From Podarcis liolepis (lineage: Eukaryota): DNA of 64,000 bases. Under the pieces are notes generated by a model that saw only the letters and a program-made list of their open reading frames with translations, had not been told where the DNA came from and did not search any database. The position numbers and the translations under genes were made by a program. Position 1 is the first letter of the stretch. Each line of letters starts with the position of its first letter. Below are positions 4,216-48,209 of this stretch, in pieces. The stretch lies in NCBI GenBank assembly GCA_965112155.1, contig OZ218100.1; one strand, 5' to 3'.

Positions 4216-4411
4216 ATGTCTCAGGAAGGATTGAAGGAAATTATGGACAAGAAGTTGGAAGAAGCTGGAAAGGCTGCTCCTGAAGACCAGTTGTTTATGC
4301 ATGATGGGGGTTTATATCCTAGCATAGTCTGTTGTCCAGACACAATGAAAATTCTTGACACGTTTGAAGCTCGGAGTGATGATGTGGTATTAGTGGGATA
4401 CGCCAAAACTG
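4216..4411 (+). CDS. SULT6B1: SULT6B1-like gene 1, coding exon 1
   Basis: ATG at 4216; MSQEGLKEIMDKKL...FEARSDDVVLVGYAKT; donor G|GTGAGT. Confidence 0.9.
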
Positions 4412-5438
4412 GTGAGTATGCTCATCTTGCAAGAAATACTTGGAGTGTGTGTGTGTGAGAGAGAATACTACTACTACTACTACTACTACTAATAATAATA
4501 AGCATTTATATTATAATATTAAGGTTCTCATTATAATTAGCACCACATCCTTTTTTTAATCAGCAGAAACTTAGTTGTGAAACATTTAATGAGCTGTCTT
4601 GGTGAAAGTGCCTCAAAAGAAAAAGAAAAAAACACTTGTATTTAAGACAGGGGTCAGCAAACTTTTTCAGCAGGGGGCTGATCCACTGTCCCTCAGACCT
4701 TGTGGCGGGGGGCTGGACTATATTTTTTTTCAGGGGGGGGGGAGAATGAATTCCTATGCCCCACAAATAACCCTGAGATGCATTTTAAATAAAAGGACAC
4801 ATTCTACTCATGTAAAAACACGCTGATTCATGGACCGCCCACAGGCTGGATTGAGAAGGCGATTGGGCCAGATCTGGCCCCCGGGCCTTAGTTTGCCTAC
4901 CCATGATTTAAGAGAAGGGGTGGGGGGGTGGGGAGAAATACAGGGCCTGCAAAATGAGATTTTGCTATTTATGACTTTAAAAACCTCCTACATGTTAAAT
5001 GATATGAATTAATAAGCATGAAAATAAAAATGCCGAGTTCTATAAGCATTACAATGAGATGCAGCATAGGTGTGTGGGGGGGCATTATCCATCCTGATCA
5101 TGTCCTTGCATGCATACTGTTACACCCCAATCTCTGAGCAGTGTGAGATTCCAGGGGTTCCAGGCGCTTACCCAGGGTTCGTGTTTGTTTTGTTTCAATC
5201 TCAGTCTCAAACCTTTTATTGGCTATAGACAAAATCCCGAAGGGTTCAGTACAATAAAATTATTCTGCCCTGCTCAGCTCCATCACAACTTTACTTCTTG
5301 CAAAGCCCGTGGACCTAGAGAAACAGAGATATACAGGAAAACATAGATCTATAAAGGCAGAATTCAGAGGAACAGAGTGACAGTGGTGAAATAAAAAAAT
5401 TAAGCCCCAAAGGGGGGATTGAAATAAAAAAATTAAGG

Positions 5439-5487
<49 letters not shown>

Positions 5488-8400
5488 ATAAATGTTCATA
5501 AATGTTCATAAATGTACCAACCAAGCACATACATAGATATGTGGACCACATGTCTGGAGCAGCACAGGAAGACCGCCCTGAAACCATTTTGAGTCCCAAA
5601 CTGACCAAATGTTTTCTCTGCAAGGAGAGAGGGGGTGAGGGAACCTTCCCATTGTCTCAGGAAGTGGGTAATCACCATCTCAAAGGAATGGCCAGACTAC
5701 CAGGAAAGGCAATCAGATAAGGCATTATCAGATAACCTGGCAGACAGGGAAAACAACATTCAATTTTTTGTTGTAGACCACCTTTTCTGTGATGTATGTA
5801 TGCTGTATGGTGGGGTGGTCTTGAGCACCAGGGAAGGCAATTTAAAATGTCTATGTAAGGGCAGGCACACCTTGGTTCTGGGTCCTCCTCCTTACCTGCG
5901 TGTGAGGAAGGCACTCTGTTGCAACAGTTCAATAAAGATCAGGCTTACTAGCTGCTTTGCTTCTCAATATTCTCTGGTTGACCTCTGTTATTTTCTCCTA
6001 CTGATGGAGAACCTACAACGGACTCTATAAGGGCTCTTGTGTCCCCCATAAAGGAATAAGGGCAGATTTTGTTTATTACAGAGGGGACCCTGATCTGAAT
6101 TGGGAGAGGTTAATGGACATCATTCTTAAGTTAGGTCTAGGGGAAAGAACCAGTCAGCCTCATTATCACCCCTGCAAAAACACACACACACACAAAAACA
6201 AAACCCAATGCAAACTACTGCACATGTATGGTCTTATCTATGTTGTAAAAGGTAAAGTAAAAGGACCCCTGACAGTTAAGTCAAGTCACATACGACTCTG
6301 GGATTGCGGCGCTCATCTCGCTTTACAGGCTGAGGGAGCCGGCATTTGTCCACAGACAGTTTTTATGGGTCATGTGGCCAGCATAACTAAGCCGCTTCTA
6401 GCGCAATGGAATACCGAAACCAGAGCAGCGCACGGAAACTCCTTTTACCTTCCTGCTGGAGCAGTACCTATTTGTCTACTTGCACTTTTTGGGGTGCTTG
6501 GCAGGAGGTTGGCATGAGCTGGGACTGAGCAACGGGAGCTCATCCCACTGCAGGGATTCGAACAGCCGACCTTCCGATCAGCAAGCCCAAGAGGCTCAGT
6601 GGTTTAGACGACACTGCCACATGCGTCCCCATAGCACCACCTGCTATGCTGTATTCGTCTGCAAAACAAAACAACCTACCCCTTTTGGAGTCTCCCTGAA
6701 CATTCAATTTGATTGTACGCGGGTGGCACTGTGAGTTAAACCACAGAGCCTAGGGCTTGCAGATCAGAAGGTCAGCAGTTAGAATCCCCACGACAGAGTG
6801 AGCTCCCATTGCTCGGTCCCTGCTCCTACCAACCTAGAAGTTTGAAAGCACGTCAAAGTGCAAGTAGATAAATAGGTACCACACCGGCGGGAAGGTAAAC
6901 GGAGTTTCCATGCGCTGCTCTGGTTTGCCAGAAGCGGCTTAGTCATGCTGGCCACATGACGCAGAAGCTGTATGCTGGCTCCCTCGGCCAATAAAGTGAG
7001 ATGAGTGCCGCAACCCCAGAGTCGTCCGGGACTGGACCTAATGGTCAGGGGTCCCTTTACCTTTACTATTCTTTAACCTATATGCACACCACAACTACAT
7101 TCAAATTCCATGGTTATGAATTTCGTTTCTGAAGATCCTTTGGCTGTGCAATAGTGATGCAAGGCCTATGTTACAGCAGGTATGAGGAGTCTCTTTCTGT
7201 GTTTTCTAACAGTTCTTTGGCATTCCTTCAGGTACTCACTGGGTTGGCCAGATTTTAAAAGAGTTGGAAGCTGCATCTGGAAAATACGATGAAGAAGAAA
7301 TGAAGCGGAGGCAGCAAATAGAGAAAGAACTAAAATTAATGCCATACCTTGAATTTGGAGATCCCGGGAAGTTTGAGGTCAGTATTGGCGAGAATAGTGC
7401 ATAGCTTGATGCATTTGAATGACATGAGAGATACCACATGGTCTTCTCCAGCCTCCAGAAATATGCAGTCAGTGTGATGAGTTAGTGCCATTGGGGTGGG
7501 TAGAGAGAACACATTGGTGTGGCTGGCTTCCCAGCTTTGAATTCAGTTTCTCCGTGCCAAAGCTCAACTCAGAACCTCTTCTGGGCATTTGTTTGGATGA
7601 GCTTGTAGAAGCCAGAGACAAAAACAAGTGACTTCAGCTGTGCCTTGTCTGGCTTCCTAATATTTAAGGCTGCAATCCTAACCCGATTTACCAGGGAGTG
7701 AACTCCAATGAATTCAATAAGACTTACTTCTGCATAGAAATGGTTACATTCAGAGTTATGTGAAGCAGCTCTCAATGTGTCAAACCTGCTGTGGATTATT
7801 CCTATAGTACAATCAAACCACCTTGCTATTTTTCACACAAAGGAATGTTAACATTTCACTTTTTTTCTAACATGTTACTAAAGAGGTTGAAGAAGTTACC
7901 TTCCAGAAGAGTGATAAAAACACATCTCATTCCTCAAAAGATTCCCAAATCTATTTTCCAAAAGAAGGCAAAGGTAAGTTCACTGCTTAAAGTTTCCTCC
8001 ATCCATCCATCCATCCATCCATCCAACCATTTAGAATATTTATATACCACTTTTCATGAAAAATTCATCAAATTGGCTTACATACCAAAATATGGCAATG
8101 AACAAACTCTTGTTTCAGATTCTGGTCAGAATAAACTTTAGGTTTGTTTCATTTTTACAATGGAAAACTGTTTTATTCAAAACCAAGGGCAGAAGTTTTC
8201 AGTCTCCTTGTATAAGAGGGAGAAGAGAGCAGAGGTGCAGCCCATGAGTCTAAGGTTTGCTTTTAAAAAATAATGCTAAAGAATACCTTAGCATCATGCC
8301 CAGCCACTGAATGGTTGCATTCTGCATGGCAGAAGTTTTTCAGGGTCTCAAGCAGAGGCTTTTGCCATCTAAGGATGGCTTTCTGCTAAGGAGTCCCATC

Positions 8401-11400
8401 AGCCAAAGGATTTGCACTTGTTCAAAAAGTCTTTGCCTCTCTCTGTACATGCCCCATGTCCTCTCCAAATCTGCTCCAAAGGGTTGGGGGGAAACTCCAG
8501 AGTAGTTTAAGGGGGAGTACAAGGAAAGGAGAAGGTGAGGCCTTCTGTTGCACAAGCAGAAATCCTTGTGCTGATGGAACAGTGGCTTTGGGGCTACATT
8601 GGATTCCACCCTGATGCTGTAATCCTGTACAATTCTTACCTGGGATTCTGAGGAATTGACTTCCATGTTCAGCGAACAATTTCTAACAATGAGCTAGGAG
8701 CTCATCTCATTATTATTATTTTTTAAGGGGTTTGTCCCCTTGTTTTATACTCTTTCTCTAAACTTCGTCATATTAATTCATGGCCAAATACACGAATATT
8801 TTCATACTACGGATTAAAGAAAAAGTTTAGATGATTTATGTTTTTGGTGTTATGGGTATGAACTTTGTCCCTCTAGTTTTGCATATCTGTTCTGCCTCTT
8901 TCTGTTTTGAAGATCCTGGTTTTGTTTCGAAACCCGAAAGACACGGCTGTATCCTACTTCCATTTTTCCAAAGGCATGAGCATCGTCCCTGATCAGAAAC
9001 CCTGGGATGAGTTCTTCTCAGAATTTATGAATGGAATAGGTATGTGCCTCTTCCATTCAGCCTATTAAATTCTAGACTAGGTACAACAGAAATATGAATT
9101 TGTAAGAAGAAGAAGAAAAGGTCATGTTGCTCTAAATCAGGGTTTCCCAACTTTTCCCTGACCGTGGCCCCCTTCCAACCTTGTTTCCTTCCTGTGGAAA
9201 TGTTTTGTTTAAATGTTTTGTTTCTAAATAGAACATGTTTTATTTTAAATTTATACAAAATAAAATTACATAAAATGAAAGGAACTTAATGAAATTTTAC
9301 TGAAGGGGAAAAATCATAGAGCTGGAAGGAACGACAAGGGTCATCTTTCTACTGCAACCCCCTGCAATGTAGGAAACTCAGCTAAAGCATGCATGACAGA
9401 TGGCTATCCAACCTCTGCTTTGAAACCTCCAAGGAAGGAAAGTCCAGATCCTCCCAAGGGAGATCCATCTTCCATGTATTATAAAACGCAAACAACACTT
9501 ATTTGACCCCAGTTATTTGATACAGAGGGGAAAACATCTGTAAGCATATCCTCCAACATTTCTCCAATGAAAATAGGGACGCCCTCTTCCATAATAATAA
9601 TTTTACTATTTATACACCGCCCATCTGACTGGGTTGCCCTAGTCACACTGGGTGGCTTCCAACATATATAAAAACATAATAAAATGTTAAAAATTAAAAA
9701 ACCACCCAACCTTCCCTATACAGGGCTGCCTTCAGATGGCTAGGGGATTGGATAACTCCATACCCTTCAACATTTGGTGAAAATAGGGACGTCCTAAGGA
9801 AAAGCGGGGCATTCCGGCATCAAACCAGAAACTGGGATGACTTCTGTAAATCTGGGGCTGTCCCTGGAAAACAGGGACACTTGGAGGGTCTGCAAAAGGC
9901 TCACAGAGAGTTCTGTATATATGGGAGAATTTTAAAAAGCAGGTGGTCCTTACTGACCTGGTGCAAAAAGATCTTGTCATCCAGAGTAGCCCTGGCTGTC
10001 TAGATGAAACACTATAGCCCCCCACACTTTTACCTGGGAGTAAGGCCCACTGAACTCAGTGCGGCTTTCTTCTGAGAAGACACTTATTTACTAGCAAGTC
10101 AGCAGCACCAGAGGAGGCTAGGCGCTGGGGCTGCAGAGCCAGGCTGATGCTGTCAACGGGCCCTGTGCCCCTTGGCAACATCTGAAGGCCCTGATCTGAT
10201 TGGCGCTGAGGTGGATCGCACCCTGTGCCTTGCAGAATCAGGCCCAGGTTGCCACCTGGCCCAGCACTGGTGGCAGCTACAAGCAGTGGTCAGAACAGGT
10301 GCAATCGCGATCGTCCTCTCCTTCTGTAAGCAAACCAGGACTGCCCCAAGAAAATGCATGGGGCAAAAAGAAGTACTAGGTGGCCCCCTGGTGGGCTGCC
10401 CGCTTACCTGCTTGTGATTGGGCAAGTAGATAGCCAGCCAATCAGGATACACACACACACTTTTCTTTTTCACTTCCCTCTGTGCCCCCCCTTTACGTAA
10501 TTTTCACCTGTGCCCCCCTTGGAATATCCTGGGGGGACGGGACAGGGGGCCATATAGTGCCTGGTTGGGAAACACTGCTGTAAACTGTTTGGAGTTTCAC
10601 AAGTCTTCAGTAGAGCAGTTTTAGATTTGCAATTTTGCAAATACATTTTTTTTAAAGCACCAGAAATCTTGCATGGCATCATGAACAATACAGTGGTACC
10701 TCGGGTTACATACACTTCAGCTTACATACGCTTCAGGTTACAGACTCTGCTAACCCAGAAATAGTGCTTCAGGTTAAGAACTTTGCTTCAGGATGAGAAC
10801 AGAAATCGGGCTCCGGCGGCGTGGCAGCAGCAGGAGGCCCCATTAGCTAAAGTGGTGCTTCAGGTTAAGAACAGTTTCAGGTTAAGAACGGACCTCCGGA
10901 ACGAATTAAGTACTTAACCTGAGGTACAACTGTAAATGAATTTTTATACACCACACCTTTGCTGATTGGCTGACATATAGAATTTCAGTTTTGGAGAACA
11001 AGGCCAGACAATCTGCAATTTGTGTGGAAGCAGTCACCACAGGCAAAGCCAAAGTGGTCTAAGCTATGCATGGTGGTCTATACTTTCCAGAAAAGTGAAT
11101 AAAGTGAAAAGAATTACATTTGAACTAGCGCGTATAATAAATATTGGTGCACACAATGCACAGGCACATAAGTGAAGTGCATTTGAAAACTATTATTAAT
11201 TAATTAACCTCATGAATCATTGTAAAAGACATAACAGAGAGAACAGCTGGCCGTGAATTACAAGAAAACCAAAATAAAAAAAATCCTTCCTGTAGCACCT
11301 TAAAGACCAACTAAGTTAGTTCTTGGTATAAGCTTTCGTGTGCATGCACACTTCTTCAGATACACACTTCTTATCTGAAGAAGTGTGCATGCACACGAAA

Positions 11401-12153
11401 GCTTATACCAAGAACTAACTTAGTTGGTCTTTAAGGTGCTACAGGAAGGATTTTTTTTATTAAGAAAACCAAAGTCATGGTTTTCTCAAGAAACTACATA
11501 AGGCCCATAGATGGCGCATGGACAACCAGCTAATTGAACAGGTCAAAGTCCCTATCTGCCCGCGGACTGCCTTGCCAGAGTGGTGCATGCTCTGGTTGTC
11601 TCCCGCTTGGACTACTGCAATGCGCTCTACGTGGGGCTACCTTTGAAGGTGACCCGGAAACTACAACTAATCCAGAATGCAGCAGCCAGACTGGTGACTG
11701 GGAACGGCCGCCGAGACCATATAACACCGGTCTTGAAAGACCTACATTGGCTCCCAGTACGTTTCCGAGCACAATTCAAAGTGTTGGTGCTGACCTTTAA
11801 AGCCCTAAACGGCCTCGGTCCAGTATACCTGAAGGAGCGTCTCCACCTCCATCGTTCTACCTGGACACTGAGGTCCAGCACCAAGGGCCTTCTGGCGGTT
11901 CCCTCACTACGAGAAGCCAAGTTACAGGGAACCAGGCAGAGGGCCTTCTCGGTAGTGGCGCCCTTCCTGTGGAACACCCTCCCACCAGATGTCAAAGAGA
12001 ACAACAACTACCAGACTTTTAGAAGACATCTGAAGGCAGCCCTGTTTAGGGAAGCTTTTAATGTTTGATGTATCATTGTATTTTAATATTCTTTTGGAAG
12101 CTGCCCAGAGTGGCTGGGGAAACCCAGCCAGATGGGCGGGGTATAAATAATAA

Positions 12154-12197
<44 letters not shown>

Positions 12198-15100
12198 AAT
12201 ATCTTGGCCTTATTTTCCAATTTATGGGGTCATGGGGAGCACACCAGAAATGTGCAAAAGAAAAAGCATCCCAAAGTGCCGAAATTCTGACATGTTTTTT
12301 CTACACAAAAGGTGGTAAACATATACCATCGGTCCTGGAAGTGTTCCAAGCTAAACCCCTCACACAGTTATTATACAGGGCTCAGACTTGGACCTTGGAT
12401 CTACGGAAGCTGTCCAATCAAAGTTTTTAAGGCAATTTTTCTCTGTACCACCCTGTATCCCAAACGCCTAGAGCAGTGGTGGCCAAACTTGGCCCTCCAG
12501 CTGTTTTGGGACTACAATTCCCGACATCCCTGACCACTGGTCCTGTTAGCTAGGGGTGATGGAAGTTATAGCCCCAAAACAGCTGGAGGGCCAAGTTTGG
12601 ATACCACTGGCCTAGAGGCTAGTCTTCCCTCAGTAGAATTACGGATTTGGCGTAAAAGACATAACATAGGACCATCAGCAAACAAGATCCATGGAAGACA
12701 TTTTGAGAAACATTTTCACATGCTACCTTTCCAAACATTAGCTTGCGTAAGCAAATGTTACTTGTGGAAAATGAATTCAGATTTTACATAAAAGCCTTTA
12801 TCATTGTCTTATCAGAGATTTGTTACATGAATAAAATGTTCTGCTTTCTTCTTAATAGTTCCCTACGGCCTTTACTTTAATCATATCATTGAATGGAACA
12901 AGTATCTGGATGACAAAAATATTATGTTTATTACCTATGAGGAACTAAAAGAGGTAAATAACACTTTTTAAATTTTATTTTTAAATTTTTAAAGCATTTC
13001 TAATGGAGAGTGTGTGAAGGAAATTGAAACAGGATTTAAATCATGGTTTCTGCTCATCTCTACCCTCTTTAACTGGTAAACAGCTCATGAATGTTTTCTT
13101 TCAAAATACAACTTTTGGATTTGTTAAATCTTATTTTGACTGGATTTCTGTAAGTCACTGAGGACTATTTCTTCATAGACAGTTCCAAACAATTACAGCT
13201 TGCAAGGAAAGACACATCTGGAAACAATAATAAGGTCACATGTTTTTCTGTTACAAAACATATTGTTTAGTAGTCAAAGAACAACTGAGCAGGATTGAAG
13301 AAAGTTATGTGCTGGTTGCAACTCTTGTGTAGAATGCAGAACAAAAACAGGAACTGGCGATCTGGAAAAGTTTCATGAGGACACAATATTTTTCACTTGT
13401 GACACCTTGTTTTCTTTATCCAGAACACAACTTTGGGAATAAAAAAAATAGCTGAATTCTTTAATTTTTCTGTGACGGAACAAGATATTCAGTCCATTAT
13501 GGAGAAGACCAGTTTCAACAGCATGAAAGAAAAATCCAATGAAACCCATGGAAAAATGGGCAACACTCTTTTCCGTAAAGGTAACATTCTTATACAGGGG
13601 TCAGCAAACTTTTCCACCGGTGGGCCAGATCGCCTGCGCACAGGAAGCTGTGGCTGCATCCCGGACGTCAGTCCCCGTGTGGAGCTAAACAGTGCACTGC
13701 CCCGGTTTAGCTCCATGCAGGGACTGACTGAGTGGGCGGCAAGGGCCAGGGGCCAGTTTAATGACCCCCTTGGGCTGAATCCAACCCGCAGCCCATGGTT
13801 TGCCAATCCCTGTTCTAATATGTTAAATTACTATCATCAACAGTACATACCTTGCTTCTCTAGTACGTTTTCTTCCAGAAACATTGTGCAGAATGAGAAG
13901 TAAGCCTATAAGTGGAATGTTTTAAAGTAAATCTATAACTGTAGCACAGTCTTATGACTGGATTGTACCACTCTAGTATGTAGATCGGGATTGTATGTTT
14001 CAGTGAAGCTCTATTGAGGGAGAGAAACCACACCTCCGTAGTGCTTCAGTTACATCAGGTAGAAAGTAGCCTAGAATCTGTTGTTTTCATGAATATGCCA
14101 CAAACCTACCTTTCCTCTTGGATTTCAGGGCTCTGCTTACAGTTTTTCCACATGAATACATCCACATATTTAGTGAATGTTGGTTGTTCTGTTTTCATCA
14201 TTTACAGTATAAGCTGTTTAGATATTTTTATTACGTTAAGTGCTATAGCATTTTAATGATCATAACCATAATGATAACAATAATTTATTAAATTTGTACA
14301 CTGCCCTTCATCCATAGATTTACAATATAAAAAACACAAAATACATAATGAAAATAGGAATAAAAATAAGAATCCTCCCACCCACAACACATTTAAAAAG
14401 GCATTGGATGTCAATCAGCTCAAGGTCTGGTTTAAGTGGAAAGTTTTTGCCTGGCGCCTAAAGGTATACAATGAAAGTGCCAGCCAAACCTCCCTTTGGA
14501 GAGCCACTGCAGAAAAGGCCTGTTCTCGTGTTGCCACTCCACAGACTTTTCGTGGAGAGGGCACACGAAGATGGGCCTTAGATGATGAGTGCAGGGTCTG
14601 GGTCAGTTCATGTAAGGAGAGGTGGTTCTTGAGGTATTGCGGTCCTGAGCCAAACATATTTATCATAATATATTTTTGCCTCTGAAGGGCACCCTCTCAA
14701 CAAAACATTCATGGTGGATTGCAGTAAAACAACAACAACAACAAACCATCACTACCAACAACGAGGTGTCCATAAAACCATAATCAGTATGAAACAATCC
14801 CAGGCTGCAATTGTATTCATTCTTACCACTCAGTTTCATACCACTCAGTGCAACATTCTTTGGAGCTCTAAAATAAGTAAGCACATATTGCAAGATGGCA
14901 ACCCACAAAAGCTCACTGAAATGAAATATTCTACAGCCCTATACAGGCATTCACCCAAATGTGTGTGGGCTGAAAATCGGCAGGAGACAATGCAGTATCC
15001 CTGCCCAACTTCCTGATCACAGGGGATCCCAGTCCCAAGGAAGATGCTAAGTGTGTTTACCAAAACATATTAACAACCCCCCTTCAAACTTTCCCTGCTA

Positions 15101-20802: not shown

Positions 20803-21154
20803 TCCAGATGTCAAGTTAACTGGAGTTAACATAAGCTTACTAGATGTTTTTCAATGAATCCGGGGACACTTTTCAACTTCAATGGATTTTATATGGGGAC
20901 TGATTTGTAAATCCAGGGACTATCCCCAGGAAACGGGGACGTCTGCTAACTTTAAGTTAACATGCAATGGGAATGCAAAGGCTAGAGATGTTTTCTAGAC
21001 ATCTTCCAGCAATTTTGGTTAAACAATAACTTTACATTCTGAATGCCTCAGCAGATACAAATTGCAACTGTGGTAATCTATTAACTTTGTTCTGTTTGGG
21101 CAGAATACAGAAAATATTAGTTTTCTTGAAGTGCCCGTCCCATCAGACACAAAG

Positions 21155-21356
21155 ATGGCCATGAGAGGTAAACATGGGATTGAAGTTACAGACAACATGT
21201 TGGCTGATGGTGTCAATCTAGCTCCAGAAGATAAACTGTTAACCTATGATGGGATTTTGTATCCTGCTGTTGTTTGCAAGCTAGAAAATTTCCAAGCCCT
21301 TGAAACCTTTGATGCCAGAATGGATGATGTGATCCTGGTAGGATATCCTAAAACAG
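21155..21356 (+). CDS. SULT6B1: SULT6B1-like gene 2, coding exon 1
   Basis: [11 protein letters not shown]...[16 protein letters not shown]; donor G|GTGAGT. Confidence 0.88.
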
Positions 21357-23747
21357 GTGAGTAGCCGTCTTTTCCACCCTAACAAAAATGTCTTATGAAA
21401 GGTAGTATATGAAGAACATAACCATACATGGAACATATTCAGTATAAAAAACAATTTATAAAGGTGCAGTTACATATAGCAAAGGTTTTATGATGAATCT
21501 ATATAGCCCAACCACAATGAGGAAGGAGTCATGGGAGGAGTACTTATATGACTCTCCCTGTTTATATACTCAAAAAATGGAGAACTGTCTGATTTGACTT
21601 CACCCCCAGACTACACATTCATGTTTGATCACTGATAATTAGAATCATAGAGTTGGAAGAGACCACAAGGGCCATCGAGTCCAACCCCCTGCCAAGCAGG
21701 AAACACCATCAGAGCACTCCTGACATATGGTTGTCAAGCCTCTGCTTAAAGACCTCCAAAGAAGGAGACTCCACTACATTCCCTGGCAGCAATTTCCACT
21801 GTCAAACAGCTCTTACTGTCAGGAAGTTCTTCCTAATGTTTAGGTGGAATCTTCTTTCTTGTAGTTTGGATCCATTGCTCCGTGTCCGCTTCTCTGGAGC
21901 AGCAGAAAACAACCTTTCTCCCTCCTCTATGTGGCATCCTTTTATATATTTGAACATGGCTATCATATCACCCCTTAACCTCCTCTTCTCCAGGCTAAAC
22001 ATGCCCAGCTCCCTTAGCCATTCCTCATAAGGCATCGTTTCCAGGCCTTTGACCATTTTGGTTGCCCTCCTCTGGACACCTTCCAGTTTGTCAGTGTCCT
22101 TCTTAAACTGTGGTGCCCAGAACTGGACACAGTACTCCAGGTGAGGTCTGACCAGAGCAGAATACAGTGGCACTATTACTTCCCTTGATCTAGATGCTAT
22201 ACTCCTATTGATGCAGCCCAGAATTGCATTGGCTTTTTTAGCTGCCGCATCACACTGTTGGCTCATGTCAAGTTTGTGGTCAACCAAGACTCCTAGATCC
22301 TTTTCACATGTACTGCTCTCAAGCCAGGTGTCCCCCATCTTGTATTTGTGCCTCTCATTTTTTTTGCCCAAGTGCAATACTTTACATTTCTCCCTGTTAA
22401 AATTCATCTTGTTTGTTTTGGCCCAGTTTTCTAATCTGTCAAGGTCGTTTTGAAGTGTGATCCTGTCCTCTGGGGTGTTAGCCACCCCTCCCAGTTTGGT
22501 GTCATCTGCAAATTTGATTGGGATGCCCTTGAGTCCATCATCCAAGTCGTTGATAAAGATGTTGAATAAGACCGGGCCCAAGACAGAACCCTGTGGCACC
22601 CCACTAGTCACTCTTCTAATAATTCCATTATTGATCTAGTCAAAATAAAGTCAAGATTAAAGGTTCATTTATAATAGAACGTCCAAAATTCAGAATTGAC
22701 GTATGGGCATCACGACTCTGTTCTCCACATCTTTAGATCATTTGCTTCTCCCCTCTCCCACACCCTGGTGACACCAATGTGCACATGTAGTTTGATAAAA
22801 CACTTCAACAAAAACAAAGTTGTTGTGCTTGTACATGCAACTACAGCACAATTTATTTTCTGTGGGGCTGTTACTGTGCCCACATGTCCATTCAAAAAGA
22901 GTCTTGACAGAATTGTATGTGCAATTACATCAAGTTTGCTTTTTTGAGATGTCCTCAATGTCAATTTATTCATATATCAACTTATCAGTATCAATTATCA
23001 TGTAATGTGAAGGGAGCAGGATGACCAATGAACTGAAGCACATATCTGCAATATTCAGAAAGAAAAAAATGGGAACATTGGTGAATTCCTAATGCATTGG
23101 TTCCTTTAGAAAGTAAACCAATTGCTTCAACATTCTGGCATCTCAACAAGTCCAATTAATCCAGAACTCCAAAAGTTCAGAAAGATCTCAAGCTTTGAGA
23201 GAAAGCAAAGCCGACCAATTCACCCATCCCTAAGTCACAGTGCTGTAGTCCCCATCTGTCAGTCAGTAGGGGTGACACACGGATATTACCTGTATAACCA
23301 CAGGTAATACAGGTTTTCTGAGGTTTTCTGGTCCATAACTGCCCATGCTATCATTGGTGAGAAGTCACCAGTAAAGGATACCAGGGGACATTTGTGGGCA
23401 GTGTCCTTGAGCAGCAGGGATTTTCATGAGCAAAATATTTAAAAGCAGCATGAAGCCAGAGTGGTCATGTGTGCCAGTCTCAAGTACATACATAAGACAT
23501 AAGCCATCTGCTTCAGGTACAAATTGGCTTGAAACCATGCTCAGCGGCTTGGAAATCAGAGCTGGGAAATATACAGAAGAGGAAAAGGAAAGAAGAAAGG
23601 CTATTGAAGAGGAATTATCAGTGCCTTCACGCCTTGAGTTTGGAAATCTAGATGCATTCAAGGTTAGTTCATCAGCAATCAGCACATTACTGACTTTATT
23701 TCATCTCTGAAAAGCATTTTAAGCACAGTTGTTTTTTAAAAAACACC

Positions 23748-23791
<44 letters not shown>

Positions 23792-26700
23792 TGCACCCAT
23801 CATGCTAGGTTTCCTCAGATACTCTGGGCAGCTTACAGGAAATATAAAAACACGTGGGTGACTGTGCACACAATAAAAGAGTTGTATTTATCACATGACG
23901 CATATTCAATTTTCTCCAGAGAAATGGTAGCTATGCCTGAAAGCGATAATTTGTGAAGGGCCCTTTGTATGTTGTCAACACTTAGGAACCGAGCAGGCGA
24001 GGAATTAAATAAATAGAATAAAAATACTTCTAGTGAAAGATCTGGAATGAAATGTTTCTGTTACATGCAATTTACAATGTAGTGAAGAAAGGAATGGATT
24101 GACCACAGTGCTTATTTCCTATCTTATTTAAGAGGATGACGAAATTACCTTCCAGAAGGATCATAGTAACTCATCTCCCTCCTCATTTACTACCCAAATC
24201 TATTTTCAAAAGTAAAGCCAAGGTGAGTACATACATCTTATAGTCTTTCAGCTATAATTCCTTTACAGCAGCATTCACTTAAATGTTATTTCAGAGCATT
24301 ATAAGCACATTCTTAAAGCGTGATTTATATCTTTGTGTTTCAGATACTGGTGCTGATTCGGAATCCAAAGGATACAATGGTGTCTTATTTTCATTTTAAC
24401 AATAACCTTTCTGTCCTTCCTAATTCAACATGGGATGCATATTTCACAGATTTTATGGATGGAAAAGGTATCCTTCTTATTTTGAAAAAAATCATGCAAG
24501 AGTAGTTCACAGGATGGGAAGAGGTCCTGCATCTGTCCCCCCCCCCCCATTCTGATGTCCAGGTGGCAGAAGAAGCTGGGAGTGTTAAGCTTTGGTTAAT
24601 ATGCCCACTGAATCCTTTCCTAGGGACTTAGGACCTAGACACTGTCATGAATGCTATGGCAACCTGTTGACTTGACTACTGTAATGTGCTTTAGCTGGGG
24701 TTGCCTTTGAAAATAGGCCAGCATCTTCCATCTGTCCAGAATCTAGCAGCATGACTCGTGATAGTGGACCTTCATGAGCTGTGCTGTTTCCCAATTTGTA
24801 TCTAGGCTAATTTCAAAGTGCTGGTTTCAACATTTAAAATCCTACACGCAGGCACATGCATTCTTAAACATCAGTGTCCGCATGCATGGGAAAGCAGATC
24901 CAATGAGCGTTCCCACATGTGTGTATGCAGGTGAGTTTATGTGAGTACGCTAGCAGAGAGCCTGCTAAGTGTTAAAATGTTGATATCGTGCAGCTTTCTT
25001 CTCCTTTTTATCCAGTGTGTTGGGGCTCCTACTTTGACCATATCTCAGAATGGGACAAGTACATTGATGATGAAAATGTCATGGGCATATGTTACGAGGA
25101 ACTTAAGGAGGTGAGGTTAACATTAGCCCCAGGGATATCAAAACTAGGTTTCTTTGTGAAATGCTGTCAAAGAGATAAATGCACAAGGACACTTTATACG
25201 TGTCCTGTCCGTGAGGAGTGCGTACGGACTGTTAGGATCGTCCTACTCTCGTGTAGGACCCTGGTAGAGACACATGCCCAACTGGCATGTTCTCTCCCTC
25301 CTGGTCTGTTGTTCGGGAGCTTCCAAAGTTTCTTCAGCCCAAACATCACAGTGACTGATACCAAGAAGCATCAACACACTTAGCGATCCACAGAGTATTC
25401 ACAGTTTGCGTAACAGAACTCAGTAGCACAGCATTTTGGCTAATCTACTTTTATTTACATATAATACACTCAAAGCATTCTGACTTAGCTCCTTCCTCTT
25501 TCTCATCAGATAGCAAAGAGAGAAAGAACAAAGGACAATAGTCCCACTTTCCGGAACACAGTAATACCAAAACATCCTGTCTCCGTCACTTCCCACTCTG
25601 TGGAATGAAAACATACACCGTCATGTGATAGACAACAATCCCATGACTACAAACACAGAGCAGGAATCCGAACACGGACATGCCATTTCATGCCTGACCG
25701 TTTCCTGAAATGCTCATAACACAGTTGTGTAGGCTTGTGGCCTACGCTGGCAGCTAAGCCAAAGAGATGGTTTCTTCTGGCCAGAGTTTTGAGTAATGTT
25801 ATTTAAATAAATATAACAAAAAGAAAGGGAGAAAACATTGCCAGCTGACATACAAAAATAGTAATCCACCAATCCTAATTTAAACATATAGCTTCATATG
25901 TCCATATGCCTAAATAGGTATTTAAATGAGATTGACAAAAGGGTAGTGAAATCTTTGGACTACTGAGTAGTAGATGATGTTGAGACACATTACTTTTGCC
26001 CCACTATAGGTGTAATGTTTTGACATATGCAATATGTTATCTCTTGGGTTTTTTTGGGGGGAAAGATCAACATTCTGAATTGCAAAAAAAAGAAGGGGGA
26101 AAAAAAGCTGAATTCTTTGGGTTGGTCTCCACCTTCAGTGTAGGGTTAGAACTTTTATATTTTTAAATTATTTTATGGGCATATAACAAAAGGAAAGGGG
26201 GGGGGGGGAAAGCCAGCCGACATGTACAATAAAAATTAACCCATCAATCCTAATTCAAGTATATAGCTTTATATGTCCATATGCCTAAATAGGTATTTAA
26301 ATCAGATTAACAAAAGGGTAGTAGTAGTAGTAGTAGTAGTAGTAATAACAGGCCCATCAGACCTGTAGTAGTAGATGGTACTAAGTTAATTTAACAGACA
26401 CATTACTTTTGCCCCACTATAGATGTAATCAGTGCTTTTTTATTGAAAAAGGTGTCAGTACTCACCAGCAAGCAGGGGGAGGAGCCAGTGTGGGGGGCGT
26501 TGCCTGATGCCAAGTCTGGGCGGTGAGGGCGGAGTAGCTGCTTGATGCTCCCTTATCCACCCACCCACCTACCAGGGCGCTGCTGCTTGGGTGAAGAAGC
26601 CTCCCCTGCCTGACTTTGGGAAGGAGACAGCAGGCCTCCAGGATCCTGTCAGAGCATTGTGCCTCTTTGTCCTAAGCTGGAGAAATGCTTCCGAGAGCCC

Positions 26701-28295
26701 TCGTGCCACCTTCCCCCCAAAAGGTGGCAGGACTACATACTGTTGCGTACAGCTAGAATGAAAAGACTGAATATACTGTTTTGACATGTTATCTCTTGTT
26801 TTTTGGGGGAAAGGATCCAAATTTAGGATTGCAAAAAATCGCTAAATTCTTTGGCTTTTCCGTGAATGAAGAAGAAATTAAAAGTGTTGTAGAAAATTGC
26901 AGTTTCAAAGCTATGAAGCAAAAATCTACTGAAACTCATGGAACATTTGGAGATGTTCTTTTCCGCAAAGGTAAATTTCTAGGGTGGGGTGGGGGTTGAT
27001 AAGGTTATTCACCAATAGTTGCCTGCTAAGTGATCACAACTATGTATAGGTACTTATCAATTTATTTTTTGCGTAAGCTTCTTTAAGGTAGGGATGCCAC
27101 AAAGGGTTGCAAAGTTTAGTTTTCAGTCCAGACCTGTGATTTCAAGGCATATAAGTTCTTCTTCTGGTTTTTTATTTATCATTCAAGAACACAGGGTATG
27201 GGATTAGGAATCTGTATTTGATTCTATAAAATCAGCCCAGAAGTTGTTGAGGATTATGATGGAGAAAAAGCTGCCATCATCATGTCTCTGATATCAACAT
27301 GCAGCAACCTTGGGAACTTCCTCATGCCCCATTGGGACCCCTTTCTAATGCCTGCTCTGGACTCTCCTGTCCACATATTTCCCCCCAGTAGTAGACAGCG
27401 CAAAGCAACTGGGAGCCACCACTTAGATTTCCCACAATGATTTGATTCTGCCCTCTGTTTCCAAGAGCTAAGAGGGCATCCATGGTATATGGGGGACTTG
27501 GCATGGGAGGGATCCATCAGAAGGAACTATACCAAGGTCCCCCTCACACCATCAGGCACTCCTGTCTTTTGTGTATTTCTATTTAAATGTATGCAAATCC
27601 ACTTTTTTGACTTTGCATGACTGTCTACCCTATTGTCAAGCGAGAACCAATTCACTGACCTCTTTTCAGGTTAATTTTGACTTAGTTGTAATTAACAGCT
27701 CCTGTGTGAGAGACTTATGCACGGTGAGTGGTTAATAAATAGCATGTTTCATAGTAAATCCTAACAGCAGCTGTGTGATGTGTGGCTGAGGAGCAAACGA
27801 TTATGGTTCCTTTCTGTCAAGGTCAGTTACCTCCTTTAGCCAACAAATTCCAAAGGAGTCAATAGGAGCAGCAGGCTGAGTGGAACAGAGGTGAAGCAAC
27901 AGCCTTCCAACAGTGGAGCCACTGCTGCTTTGGAGGGGAAGGGAAGGCTAAAGCAAGTCACAAGGGTGGGGCTGCACAGGAGCAACAGCAGAACACCTAT
28001 TGCTGCCATCACACAGTATTGACTTCATTGCTGTCTTGGCTTTCCCTTTCCCTTTCCAGCAAGTGGCCGTGACACTGCAACTCACCCCACTGAAGAGACC
28101 CCAGTTTAATAAAATATCTTCTGAATATATGTTAAAACTAGTCATTTATCTTAAATGTTTGCAGGATCTGTTGGTGACTGGAAAAGCCTGTTCTCTGAAT
28201 CTCAGAGCCAAGAAGTGGATAGAAGATTTAAAGACTGTTTAGCCAAAAGCAAACTCGGAGCAAAGATGAAGTATGAGGTTTACTGCAAGATCTGA
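21155..28295 (+). CDS. SULT6B1: Cytosolic sulfotransferase, SULT6B1-like paralog 2 (7 coding exons, 314 aa)
   Basis: Exons 21155-21356, 23517-23662, 24133-24222, 24344-24467, 25016-25110, 26814-26970 and 28165-28295 join in frame (945 nt, TGA stop). Motifs [49 protein letters not shown]. Strong Kozak context aagATGg; an alternative ATG lies at 21161. Confidence 0.93.
21641..22617 (-). mobile_element. Young 5'-truncated CR1 LINE (RT C-terminus, 269-aa open frame)
   Basis: [53 protein letters not shown]; ATGATTCT tail; ATAATT TSD; empty site in gene 3 intron 1 (~30815). Confidence 0.95.
23517..23662 (+). CDS. SULT6B1: SULT6B1-like gene 2, coding exon 2
   Basis: [13 protein letters not shown]...[11 protein letters not shown]; 146 nt. 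Confidence 0.9.
24133..24222 (+). CDS. SULT6B1: SULT6B1-like gene 2, coding exon 3
   Basis: [30 protein letters not shown]; 90 nt. Confidence 0.92.
24344..24467 (+). CDS. SULT6B1: SULT6B1-like gene 2, coding exon 4
   Basis: [18 protein letters not shown]...[12 protein letters not shown]; 124 nt. Confidence 0.92.
25016..25110 (+). CDS. SULT6B1: SULT6B1-like gene 2, coding exon 5
   Basis: [32 protein letters not shown]; 95 nt. Confidence 0.92.
25201..25680 (-). mobile_element. Solo LTR-like insertion shared with gene 3 (35571-35867)
   Basis: TGTCC...GGACA termini; minus-strand AATAAA. Confidence 0.5.
26020..26121 (+). pseudogene. Decayed partial copy of the exon 6 acceptor and 5' end (pseudo-exon) in gene 2 intron 5
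   Basis: ...tctcttgggtttttttggggggaaagatcaacattctgaattgcaaaaaa...gctgaattctttggg mirrors the exon 6 start; part of a ~330-bp tandem duplication. Confidence 0.75.
26814..26970 (+). CDS. SULT6B1: SULT6B1-like gene 2, coding exon 6
   Basis: [14 protein letters not shown]...[12 protein letters not shown]; 157 nt. Confidence 0.9.
28165..28295 (+). CDS. SULT6B1: SULT6B1-like gene 2, coding exon 7
   Basis: [22 protein letters not shown]...MKYEVYCKI*; 131 nt. Confidence 0.92.
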
Positions 28296-29300: not shown

Positions 29301-29910
29301 AAACAGAAGAAACTAGCTGATATGGGATGAAGGTTATCAACTGTGTATGGCTCATTGTTTATCTTCTTGTAAAATGCTGTTGGAAAATAACACTATTTTA
29401 CAAACCATTGGAAGCGGTGGTCTAAAATCATTTATTTGCACTGCTATAATTTCAATCAACGGACATATACATGGTATTATGGCTACTGTACGACTTACCG
29501 ACACTTTTCATTGTTTACCACACTTACTAATGAGTCTCTCTTGCCCGCTTCACACACACAATGCCTGTTTTCTGAACATTCTGAACCAATTTCTGTGAGA
29601 ACCTGATGCTAGGTAAGATGGCTTTTGAACTGATCCAGCAAAACTATTCTTGATGCTGATGACTTCTGAAAGAATCAGAAGCCCAAATGTCAAGGACAGC
29701 TGTGAACATGGAATGGGAAATGTAAGGCTAGAGGTACTTTACAGGCATCTTGGTTAAACAGTAACCTTACACTGTGAACTTCATCACCAGATATGAATCG
29801 TAATCTTGGTAATATATTAACTTTTTCTGATCAACATAAGTATTAATCTGTTCAGGCAGAATAGCTCAAATCTCAGTCTTCATCAAGTGTCCATCCCATC
29901 AGATACAAAG

Positions 29911-30109
29911 ATGACCATGAACAGGAAACGTATTGAAATTCTGGACAAGTTGTTGGCTAATGGTGACAAGCTAGCTCCAGAAGATAAGCTATTTACCTAT
30001 GAAGGGATTTTGTATCCTCTTGCTGTTTGCAAGCTAGAAAATTTCCAAGCTCTTGAAACCTTTGAAGCAAGAACAGATGATGTGATCCTGGTAGGATATC
30101 CTAAAACAG
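29911..30109 (+). CDS. SULT6B1: SULT6B1-like gene 3, coding exon 1
   Basis: MTMNRKRIEILDKLL...[16 protein letters not shown]; donor G|GTGAGT. Confidence 0.88.
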
Positions 30110-33100
30110 GTGAGTAGCCATCTTTTCCACCCTAACTGTAGTGGTTGGGAGTTACTCGTGCGTAATCCTGCCCCGTTTGAGCATTGGATTGCCTGCTTAA
30201 ACCCTCCGGACTGCACAGCCCATCTCAGCGTGGCTGCCCTTAGTCACTCGTAGAATCTGTCTGTGGGCGTTTCTTAAAGCGCTGCCAACATAAGAGCTGT
30301 TTGACGCCCAATTGTCTCCGCCTCTCACTGCGCGGGAGTCTCCTGCGCAGGGTGGGCGTGGGCAGCGGGGTGCCTGGGCTCTCCTCACTAACTTCCAACG
30401 AAGAGTCCTGGAGCCCCTGCACCTCCCTGTCCCGTTGCTCTCCTGGATCCCTGGTGTTACACTCATTCTCTTCCCCTTCTTCCCAGCTGAGTCTTCCCCT
30501 AGCGCTGGGACCTTCTCCTGCAGAATCAGAGACCCTCTCCTTCTCCCGTGCCTCTGATGTCAGTTCCCTGACACTAACCAAAATGTCTTATGAAAGGCAG
30601 TATATGAAGAACATAACCATACATGGAACATAGTCTGTATAAAAAACAAATTACATAGGTGCAGTTACATATAGCCAAGGAATCTAAATAGTCCAACCAT
30701 GATGAGGAAAGAGTCACAGGAGGAGTACTTATATGACTCTCCCTATTTATATACTAAAAAATGGAGAACTGTCTGATTTGGCTTCACCCCCAGACTACAC
30801 ATTCATGTCTGACCATTAATAATTCCATTACTGTCAGGAGGCAGAGGAATCAACCCCCGTGGCAGGTTTCCAGGAATGGATATGACAAGGAAAAGTTCTT
30901 ACCACCTGCCTTTTATTCAACATTTACGGAGAGAGGCTTGGAAACGCAGCCTCTTGGAATGATGGCATTGTCCCGAGTAAATCTCTCCTCCCCTTCTCTC
31001 CCACTTCCTCATTCGTCATCTATTCTACGGGTGGTGCTGAGGGCTCTTTGCTTCTGAGCCCTCCGCTCTCCTACTTTCAAGGCTCACCAGGTTCTGGGAG
31101 GGGGGGTCTGGAATGCTTTCTAAAGTCACATGTGGAATAGATTCCCATCCTTATGGTTACATCCCCAGTACTTACTACTGGTTTTTTTTTTTTTTTTTGT
31201 TCATTTTCTCCAATTTTCGCCAATATACATCATTTTTTTAAAAAGTTTTCTTTATTTAAATAGCAGGCTGAAAATTTGATATCATATTTCCAAAGATTTT
31301 CCCATTTCTCCAATTCTATTGTATATCTGAAGTCTTGGGCCCATTTTGCCATTACATCCTTACATCCTTAACAATTTCGTCTTTTAAATGCCAATTTAAT
31401 CATAACTTATACATTTTGGATAAATTCTTTATTTGTGGTCAGTGTCCTTGAGCAGCAGGGATTTCCATGAGCAAGTTATTAAAAAGAGGCATGAAGCACA
31501 TACCCCAGACATTTTGCATCTCATTCAGGTACAAACTGGCTTGAAACCATGCTACGTGACTTGGAATTCAGGGCTGGGAAATATACAGAAGAGGAATATA
31601 AAAGAAGAATGGCAATTGAAGAGGAGTTGGCAGTGCCTCCACGTCTTGAGTTTGAGGATCCAGACGCCATCAAGGTTAGTTCATCAGCAATCAGACCATC
31701 ACTGACATTAATTAGTCTCTGAAAAGCAGACAGATAGTGTTCATTGTCTAGGAGAACCACTCTTTTAAAAAATGAGTTTAGGAAGCATCAGACCTCCTTG
31801 AATGGCATGCAGATCTTTGTCACCCAAGGAGCAGGCATTTGGATTCCTGTGCTAGAGGGAAATAACACTGGCCTTTCTCCATACATGATGAGCTCATGTC
31901 AACCAACAGCACACACTCTTTCCAATCAATTGGGTGTTCAACTTATCTGTTCAACTTACTGCAGAGCCACACCACACATTTAACTTCCCTCAAAGAATCC
32001 TGAAAACTATAGTTTGTTACAGTTGGGAACTGTTTGTTTGCTGGGAATTGTAGCTCTGTGAGCTCTGTTACAAATGCGCGTTGAACATACTTTAAATGTA
32101 CAGCGGGGGTCTGCCTTAATGCTTTCCCCAGCACATTTTGGTTTTGGGGAAAACCTTTCATGGAGATTTTGCTTATATTTGTGTGTGTGTATGGGGGGGA
32201 TTGCATCACTTTGGGGTGAGGGGAGTAATATTTTGATGAGGTGGCCAGTTTCTGTCTTCTCCCCTTTTTTTAACCAAAGTCATACCTCAGGATAAATACG
32301 CTTCAGGTTGAGCGCTTTCGGGTTGCGCTCCGCGGTGCACCGGAAGTAACGGAGCATGTTACTTCTGGGTTTCGCCACTCGTGGATGTGCAGACGGTCAA
32401 AATTCGCATCCTGAGGTACCACTGTATAAGAAGCTGTGGCTTGGTAGCAGTTGCCAGGTGATTATGTAGCGTCATCCTGAGGGGCACAGATGGCCAAGCC
32501 AAAGTCTTCATGGCCTGATGGACACAGTGTCTCTGAGGCAAGTTTATTTATGTATGAAACGTCAATTCATGGTACAGTCGCATGTATTCCCATCTCTGAC
32601 TGTTATTCTTTTTAGCCTAAAAGTAGATTGAAGACATGGGGCATAATAATAACATGTACCAGGGAGGTACAACCTCACCTGAAGTCATGGAAGAGGGTTT
32701 GCAATTTTTGTTTGGTTTAGACTGGAGATGCACTTCCCCCTGCAGATGTTGATTTCACTGTGTCATTTGTATTAACAGCAGCACGAATAAACTGTTATGT
32801 AAGCTGAGAAATCTGCCAGTTCCAGAAATCTAGCTCATCATCGTCTTTCTTTTTCCTTTTTCCTGGTCAGTTGGCAGTTTATCCATCATTCTTTAAGACC
32901 AGGTTTAAAAAAAATAACTGTAAAATACTGATAACTGTGCACAAAATCAAAGAGTTGTATTTACATGACACGTATTCAAAAAATGTCTCCTAGAACAGTG
33001 GTAGCTGTGCTTGAAAATCAGAATTGGGAAGAGCGCTTTGTGTGTTATGTAGACATATAGGAACCAAGCAGGCTAGGGATTAAATAAATAAAATAAAAAT

Positions 33101-48116: not shown

Positions 48117-48209
48117 AAACAAAAAAAATTCCTTCCAGTAGCACCTTAAAGACCAACTAAGTTAGTTCTTGGTATGAGCTTTCGTGTGCATGCACACTTC
48201 TTCAGATAC
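48117..48209 (-). mobile_element. Penelope-like element terminal fragment
   Basis: Single arm of the 11273 palindrome; TSD CTACATCG. Confidence 0.7.

What the first reader, a model, noticed from the sequence alone, without database searches (positions are those of the whole stretch)
11273..11461. Perfect 90-bp palindrome carrying a minimal hammerhead ribozyme motif on each strand, inside gene 1 intron 4
Seen: a perfect inverted repeat (90-bp arms, 9-nt loop) with a 12-bp TSD. Each arm reads (G)UAU-CUGAAGA-A-GUGUGC-AU-GCACAC-GAAA-GC-UU-AUA(C): the hammerhead core CUGANGA...GAAA, a 6-bp stem II, a short stem I, and no room for a monomeric stem III, but a self-complementary AAGCUU in its place. 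Known: Penelope-like retroelements carry minimal type I hammerheads thought to cleave as dimers, and they leave inverted terminal fragments. Inference: a recent PLE-derived insertion. In the pre-mRNA it could fold as a long hairpin (Dicer/ADAR substrate, masking the ribozyme) or self-cleave within the intron.
Basis: partly seen in the sequence, partly recalled or inferred. Interest (0 to 1): 0.7.

Follow-up and report, generated by a model that had tools for sequence, protein, structure and literature searches.

The report
Mirror-image stub of Penelope retroelement
This perfect hairpin is one of more than 1,600 similar mirror-image stubs of a common Penelope-like jumping gene in this genome, likely made when both ends of a DNA cut copied the front of the element's RNA, and its self-cutting RNA motif is predicted to stay trapped in the hairpin, so the locus is mostly ordinary.

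Summary
In detail: 90-nt perfect arms, 9-nt spacer, 12-bp target duplication, one minimal hammerhead per strand, in intron 4 of a sulfotransferase gene. Each arm is the 5'UTR/pseudo-LTR end of a 3,008-bp Penelope-like element with a 910-aa RT + GIY-YIG ORF and a Neptune-type linker. The genome holds 12,405 exact hammerhead copies and 1,666 such head-to-head palindromes.

Arms stop just before the ribozyme (40 of 90 at -11..-1), about 30 nt below a TATA-like box, and not at the cut site. In 9 of 23 asymmetric pairs each arm holds sequence the other lacks. The best model is that both nicked strands primed reverse transcription inside the RNA and ran to its 5' end. The RNA start site and the two-primer model are inferred.

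In pre-mRNA the antisense arm is made first, so the ribozyme is predicted to be trapped; self-cleavage is unlikely. One oddity: neither arm carries the usual ~35-nt tail, whereas 47 of 50 other palindromes have exactly one. Inverted copies, tails and minimal hammerheads are published Penelope features. This scan noted the same stubs earlier in this genome and others. Verdict: real, a new member of a known kind, low interest.

The parts
11262..11273 (+). Left target-site duplication AAGAAAACCAAA; its last 4 nt (CAAA) also match the element's continuation (microhomology)
11273..11365 (-). Left arm: element 5'UTR/pLTR end read on the - strand, from position -6 (GTG, 11365-11363) through the hammerhead to the U-rich tract; no tail
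11326..11363 (-). Minimal type I hammerhead, - strand: 4-bp stem I, C3 at 11359, predicted cut after 11330 (CUU)
11363..11371 (.). 9-nt spacer: 3 native bases plus ACTTCT, which matches element positions +4..+9 (likely re-copied after a slip at the template end)
   Evidence: 17 of 23 longer spacers match the element's -12..+16 region against 1.9 in shuffles
11372..11461 (+). Right arm: the same 5'UTR/pLTR end from position -3 to the U-rich tract; no tail
11372..11407 (+). Minimal type I hammerhead on the pre-mRNA strand: 3-bp stem I, C3 at 11375, predicted cut after 11404 (CUU)
11462..11473 (+). Right target-site duplication AAGAAAACCAAA
11235..11555 (+). Older dispersed repeat that received the insertion; likely a fragment of another retroelement's RT region (open frame in a paralog; family not confirmed by Pfam); right end approximate
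4216..13591 (+). Host sulfotransferase gene, coding exons 1-6 located (4216-4411, 7233-7377, 7884-7973, 8914-9040, ~12860-12955, ~13420-13580); last exon not located; insert lies in intron 4

Best explanation
It is a stub-sized head-to-head insertion of an endonuclease-bearing Penelope-like retroelement, likely formed when both nicked target strands primed reverse transcription inside the element's RNA and copied to its inferred 5' end, and its hammerhead is predicted to be trapped and inactive. Shown: the arm is the element's 5'UTR, from the ribozyme to the U-tract just before the ATG; the 12-bp TSD; 1,666 sister palindromes; 5' ends piling up just before the ribozyme; two preferred 3' ends about 35 nt apart. 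Inferred: the GIY-YIG nuclease makes a ~12-13-nt staggered cut; each 3'-OH primes at an internal RNA site (U-tract or tail end), helped by 1-4 nt of pairing; each cDNA runs about 90-130 nt through the uncleaved ribozyme to the RNA start below a TATA/Inr-like promoter, slips and re-copies a few bases (the spacer), and the two cDNA ends are joined. Here both ends used the U-tract site, which is the rare outcome. In the host pre-mRNA the antisense arm emerges first and zips up the ribozyme arm, so the insert is most likely a neutral dsRNA hairpin in mid-intron.
For: Element anatomy. Copy numbers: 12,405, 16,068, 1,666 palindromes. 5' step: 8,744 copies hold GTGTATCTG.. but only 4,776 hold 5 more upstream bases; 40 of 90 arms end at -11..-1 (3.6 per nt) against 0.5 per nt inside the ribozyme, with none at the cut-product start +30/+31. 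The same loose-end pile-up at 11363-11366 appears in contigs of 4 runs with 4 organism labels. 3' ends are bimodal, which fits the two internal RT start sites and priming on both strands shown in vitro for the anole Poseidon element (PMC11167929). 19 of 38 unpaired arms end at the U-tract, so that site can prime alone. In 9 of 23 asymmetric pairs the tail-less arm reaches at least 10 nt further 5' than the tailed one, so neither arm can be a copy of the other. TSD 12-15 bp in 39 of 51; spacer re-copy in 17 of 23 against 1.9. Junction microhomology 1.54 vs 0.94 and 1.89 vs 0.86 nt (2 and 0 of 3,000 simulations). Trapping: P(long hairpin) 0.9999.
Against: The RNA start site was not shown: three RNA runs from a related organism had no pile-up of molecule starts at -6, though 86-90% of those reads come from stubs inside host RNA. 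D. virilis Penelope has a TATA-less internal promoter (PMC2377424 passages). The near-strict one-tail/one-no-tail rule (47 of 50) is not explained by independent priming, and this locus breaks it. Both arms share the subfamily base in 50 of 51 palindromes, which self-copy models also predict. The in vitro work found priming without homology and concerns a Poseidon element, whereas this one has a Neptune-type linker. The 9 pairs with ends within 10 nt and the 5 with the tailed arm longer do not discriminate between models. This locus itself, with near-equal arms, does not discriminate either.
Confidence: 0.7

Rival explanations
1. Fold-back or self-priming: one cDNA, or an antisense RNA as Arkhipova et al. 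2013 proposed, folds on itself and copies itself into the mirror arm, which is then resolved by the endonuclease at the U-tract. The origin from a Penelope-like element is the same; only the mechanism differs.
For: Arms are nearly always of one subfamily (50 of 51) and one arm is nearly always tail-less. Self-priming on an antisense template is the published explanation of head-to-head palindromes (PMC3846280 passages).
Against: In 9 of 23 asymmetric pairs each arm holds sequence the other lacks, and both directions of 5' asymmetry occur (9 vs 5). Tail-less ends occur in 19 of 38 unpaired arms. The anole protein extends both strands in vitro.
Confidence: 0.17
2. The 5' ends mark a reverse-transcription stall at the ribozyme's stem I, or a template-switch hotspot in a longer RNA, and not the transcription start.
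For: Ends coincide with the 5' strand of stem I. No RNA start was seen there. 4,776 copies read through this point.
Against: Polymerase stalls are expected at the 3' base of a structure (general knowledge), not after it has been unwound, and the hairpin is weak (about -7 to -9 kcal/mol). A TATATA box lies ~30 nt upstream with an Inr-like TCAGT at -9..-5 (motif labels recalled; TATA + Inr also noted in rotifer pLTRs). Read-through copies are expected from the downstream pLTR of tandem transcripts.
Confidence: 0.1
3. The insert acts as a functional element in the host intron: a self-cleaving ribozyme, or a selected Dicer/ADAR substrate that regulates the sulfotransferase gene.
For: A perfect 90-bp duplex in a sense intron; the catalytic core bases are intact.
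Against: Only one hammerhead per strand, and minimal hammerheads show no cleavage as monomers (PMC4209133). The ribozyme is predicted to be trapped. The insert is young, one of 1,666, and lies 2.2 and 1.4 kb from the nearest exons. Rfam miRNA hits are all below their gathering scores.
Confidence: 0.03
4. It is a MITE (a DNA-transposon derivative with terminal inverted repeats) or an assembly fold-back artefact.
For: A perfect inverted repeat with a TSD.
Against: The spacer and both ends differ from copy to copy among 51 palindromes, so each was built anew. The arms are the UTR of an RT element. A 12-bp TSD with matching empty sites in paralogs argues against an artefact.
Confidence: 0.01

Closest known systems
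Insertion units of EN+ Penelope-like elements with inverted 5'-truncated copy and one-sided 30-40 bp tail (Craig et al. 2021, PMC8557442, passages; Arkhipova et al. 2013, PMC3846280, passages)
   Same: Partial tandems, head-to-head inverted copy, TSD, optional tail on one end, hammerhead in the pLTR, TATA/Inr-like motifs in the pLTR.
   Different: Here the whole insertion is only two ~90-nt UTR ends with no ORF sequence, and neither end has the tail. The published explanation is self-priming on an antisense template.
Minimal hammerheads of metazoan PLEs (Cervera and de la Pena 2014, PMC4209133, parts 1-2 of 4 read)
   Same: Type I core, extra base between positions 9 and 10.1, G10.1-C11.1 pair, palindromic 15.2-16.2 with no loop 3, short helix I; opposite-strand pairs 100-700 bp apart were noted in Schistosoma.
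   Different: The pairs here are back to back within 30 nt; this subfamily has CUU rather than CUC at the cut site; stem II is itself a perfect 14-nt palindrome.
Poseidon element of Anolis carolinensis, PAc (Frangieh et al. 2024, PMC11167929, parts 1-2 of 4 read)
   Same: Two internal RT start sites bounding the tail, AT-rich targets, both strands extended, uncleaved ribozyme RNA used as template.
   Different: PAc is Poseidon clade with its ATG inside the ribozyme; this element has the CX4CxxC linker (Neptune/Nematis type) and its ATG ~92 nt after C3. The parts read do not describe a 5'-end pile-up or mini-palindromes. Junctions here show a modest microhomology excess.
Non-LTR retrozymes (Li, Clavereau and Pollet 2026, 10.64898/2026.07.22.740005, part 1 of 5 read)
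   Same: Non-coding, hammerhead-bearing, derived from PLE pLTRs.
   Different: Retrozymes are head-to-tail tandem arrays able to dimerize and circularize; this is a head-to-head one-off insertion with one ribozyme per strand.

Membership tests
EN+ Penelope-like element (source family) | Single ORF with RT and C-terminal GIY-YIG endonuclease | tested here: met
   910-aa ORF in L043: RVT_1 at 441-586 and GIY-YIG at 808-860; open frames of 926 aa in several copies
EN+ Penelope-like element (source family) | Partial-tandem organization forming pLTRs with a hammerhead | tested here: met
   3,008-bp tandem units with the hammerhead before each ORF (L043, L044 and others)
EN+ Penelope-like element (source family) | Inverted 5'-truncated copy, TSD and optional 30-40 bp tail | tested here: met
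   26 head-to-head pairs among 90 arms; bimodal 3' ends ~35 nt apart; TSD 12-15 bp in 39 of 51. This locus has the inversion and TSD but no tail.
Neptune clade | CX2-5CxxC linker before the GIY-YIG domain, CCHH motif and DKG motif | tested here: met
   CNKPRCQLC, two cysteines between VYAI and LYIG with downstream histidines, and ADKGG in the translation; motifs as defined in PMC8557442 passages. The linker is shared with Nematis.
Neptune clade | RT phylogeny grouping with named Neptune elements | not tested
   No named reference was at hand; the 120 homologs listed carry no clade names
Penelope/Poseidon clade | Absence of the CX2-5CxxC linker | tested here: not met
   The linker is present
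Minimal type I hammerhead (min-HHR) | Core CUGANGA and GAAA, NUH site, helix II with G10.1-C11.1, short helix I, palindromic 15.2-16.2 | tested here: met
   against the description; CUU fits NUH as defined in PMC3138052 passages
Minimal type I hammerhead (min-HHR) | Covariation in stems I and II across families | tested here: inconclusive
   Copies are nearly identical; a search for other cores gave 16 hits, 3 with a different stem II, too few to test
Minimal type I hammerhead (min-HHR) | Self-cleavage as a dimer or with protein help | not testable with these tools
   No pile-up of read ends at the cut site in 3 RNA runs of a related organism; these libraries are not suited to the test
Non-LTR retrozyme | Head-to-tail tandem units, each with a hammerhead | tested here: not met
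   Head-to-head, one ribozyme per strand
MITE | Homogeneous full-length copies with fixed ends and centre | tested here: not met
   Spacers and ends vary among 51 palindromes

The most novel reading that the evidence does not exclude
The thousands of stubs record the missing steps of the Penelope cycle. Reverse transcription starts at two sites just inside the 5' end of the RNA, makes a retrovirus-like 'strong-stop' cDNA up to the transcription start, and does so from both nicked strands (twin priming, helped by 1-4 nt of pairing). The telomerase-related RT realigns and re-copies bases at the template end, and only uncleaved-ribozyme RNA serves as template. A locus with two tail-less arms shows that the one-tail rule is a strong preference and not a necessity.
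Probability: 0.55. Interest if true: 0.55.

Novelty: new member of a known kind. Interest (0 to 1): 0.25.

Why it matters
The locus itself is likely a neutral by-product. Its value is as one data point in a large natural record of how Penelope-like elements insert; their inverted structures are described in the literature as still mechanistically undefined (PMC8557442 passage). The family also scatters at least 1,666 near-perfect 80-130-bp hairpins through the genome, and in a related organism its stubs are transcribed on both strands inside host RNA. That makes it a plausible, untested source of endogenous double-stranded RNA.

Tried and rejected
Rfam scan: only sub-threshold miRNA-hairpin hits and no hammerhead family at E up to 5; rejected as a generic long-hairpin signal.

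Presence/absence at this exact locus: a joint that skips the insert (11261 to 11462) appears in contigs of 3 of 4 runs, but the target is itself a repeat (23 matches) and the joint's depth exceeds single copy, so it does not show polymorphism here.

RNA evidence: no RNA holder was on record for the locus. Raw reads of a related organism laid on an element junction showed no molecule-start pile-up at -6 and none at the cut site; this is uninformative because stub-containing host RNA dominates.

Copies born from the ribozyme's 3' cleavage product: rejected, 0 of 90 arms start at +30/+31 and 3 at +32/+33, which is background.

RNA dimerization through the palindromic stem II as the source of two templates: cofolding gives about -31 kcal/mol, but the dimer lacks helix III and variant stems are not palindromic; kept only as a weak lead.

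My first microhomology null counted chance in one direction only and overstated the excess; it was replaced.

Four of 50 palindromes scored as tail-less. One has a tail behind an ATTT expansion and three are diverged or interrupted.

Sequence look-up in earlier findings gave nothing.

Literature searches returned no paper that, by listing or in the parts read, describes mini-palindromes ending at the RNA start or twin priming for PLEs. Subscription papers (including Arkhipova 2006, not seen), Repbase entries and supplements (Fig. S2 of PMC11167929 in particular) were not seen and may bear on this.

Full report
Observation. The palindrome is as described: arms 11273-11362 and 11372-11461, 100% complementary, with a 9-nt spacer. 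It folds at -166 kcal/mol, and 0 of 200 shuffles do as well. AAGAAAACCAAA flanks both sides. The target is an older repeat (23 matches), and 9 of 9 paralogs inspected show one copy of that 12-mer with no insert, so it is a true target-site duplication. Each strand has a hammerhead core. The host is a + strand sulfotransferase, and the insert lies in coding intron 4.

Identity. The 84-nt arm query gave 743 candidates in the genome, of which 40 were scored. Long copies continue upstream into an RT + GIY-YIG frame. Twelve fetched stretches show 3,008-bp tandem units, several with 926-aa open frames, and an ATG just after the U-rich tract. The arm is therefore the 5'UTR/pLTR end of a Penelope-like element, from the ribozyme to the U-tract. 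The 910-aa protein has RVT_1 and GIY-YIG domains and a CX4CxxC linker, which marks the Neptune and Nematis clades rather than Poseidon (PMC8557442 passages). The closest named full-region relatives are turtle proteins at about 70% identity, with a lacertid lizard fragment at 81%, so the host is likely a lizard. The arm differs by 1 of 84 bases from a copy with an open 921-aa frame, so the insertion is recent.

Abundance. Whole-genome exact counts: 12,405 for the 35-nt ribozyme, of which 826 have this locus's CUU site; 16,068 for a downstream 28-mer; and 1,666 head-to-head double hammerheads with 30 nt or less between the cores.

Where arms begin. I mapped the first 90 of the 100 listed matches of a motif that lies downstream of the ribozyme. 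Relative to C3, 40 of 90 begin at -11..-1 (3.6 per nt), 15 within 0..28 (0.5 per nt), none at +30/+31 where the cleavage product would start, 5 at +32..+38, and 30 further upstream. Genome-wide, 8,744 copies reach -6 but only 4,776 reach -11. Contigs of four runs show the same loose-end pile-up. A TATATA box lies about 30 nt upstream with TCAGT at -9..-5 (the labels TATA and Inr are recalled). I infer that this is the RNA's 5' end. RNA reads from a related organism did not show it, but 86-90% of them came from stubs inside host transcripts.

Where arms end. 3' ends fall in two groups about 35 nt apart, matching the two internal RT start sites that bound the tail in the anole Poseidon element; that protein nicks and extends both strands and uses uncleaved RNA (PMC11167929, parts 1-2 of 4). 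Among the first 50 palindromes listed, 46 scored one tailed arm and 4 scored none. On inspection one of the four has a tail and three are diverged or interrupted. Genome-wide, 1,606 tail-plus-palindrome matches against 1,666 palindromes fit about one tail each. This locus, intact and with a full TSD, has no tail on either arm, which is its one peculiarity.

Two primers or a fold-back. Of 26 head-to-head pairs in the 90-arm sample, 23 are asymmetric, 2 have two tails and 1 scored none. In 9 of the 23 the tail-less arm reaches at least 10 nt further 5', so each arm holds sequence the other lacks; in 5 the tailed arm reaches further; 9 are level. 19 of 38 unpaired arms end at the U-tract. This favours two independent cDNAs over the self-priming model in PMC3846280 (passages). 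Against it, both arms share the subfamily base in 50 of 51 cases, and the one-tail rule is unexplained. TSDs are 12-15 bp in 39 of 51. Of 23 spacers with 6 or more extra bases, 17 match the element's -12..+16 region, against 1.9 in shuffles (maximum 7 in 1,000); this locus's ACTTCT is one of them. Junction microhomology exceeds a two-sided null: 1.54 vs 0.94 nt at 35 short ends and 1.89 vs 0.86 nt at 38 tail ends (9 of 82 junctions were left out because element letters did not run up to the TSD). This locus has 4 nt on the left and 0 on the right.

The ribozyme. It meets the sequence description of the minimal PLE hammerhead (PMC4209133, parts 1-2 of 4), for which monomers did not cleave and dimers cleaved weakly. 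On the pre-mRNA strand stem I has only 3 bp. In a head-to-head layout the antisense arm is transcribed first on either strand, each strand has one ribozyme, and the predicted probability of stem II is about 1e-19 against 0.9999 for the long hairpin. Intronic self-cleavage is therefore unlikely. Editing or dicing is possible but untested; Rfam gave only sub-threshold hairpin hits.

Comparison and verdict. Inverted 5'-truncated copies, a one-sided tail, TSDs and minimal hammerheads are published features of these elements. My reading was noted before any look-up. The scan's earlier notes describe the same stubs in this genome and others; they are unchecked AI notes and not independent support. 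In six searches I found no paper stating the RNA-start or twin-priming model, but subscription papers and supplements were not seen. The locus is real and ordinary in kind, and the population-level mechanism is the only part of specialist interest. Identity as a Penelope-like stub is about 0.97 likely, the full mechanism about 0.7, and interest is 0.25.

Noticed in passing
window 48116-48209 (- strand): A third, single (non-inverted) stub of the same element with the majority CUC site, starting at about -4 and apparently flanked by a short duplication (CGATGTAG).
   Followed up: partly
L051 (G000:C8:51194000-51203900): A copy with U at the ribozyme cleavage position has an open 921-aa frame, and 826 CUU motifs exist genome-wide, so a subfamily with a changed cut site has transposed.
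   Followed up: partly
L043:4911 back to 4720 in RNA runs X22 and X23: Reads join the early ORF back to position -7 of the ribozyme (7 and 12 reads, two runs of one study); this could be a head-to-tail genomic stub or a circular RNA.
   Followed up: no
window 4216-13591, ~21100-27000, ~29900-36650 (+ strand): At least three tandem sulfotransferase paralogs.
   Followed up: partly
L043:4819-7548: The element's RT-EN region is about 70% identical to turtle proteins and at most 53% over the full region to the other listed relatives; horizontal transfer was not tested.
   Followed up: no
window 11383-11396 and 11338-11351: Stem II is a perfect 14-nt palindrome predicted to let two RNAs dimerize (about -31 kcal/mol); variant stems are not palindromic.
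   Followed up: partly
window 12468-12615 and 9602-9741 / 12024-12154: An 83% inverted repeat of 64 nt, and two oppositely oriented ends of another repeat, lie in the same intron and could add further double-stranded RNA.
   Followed up: no
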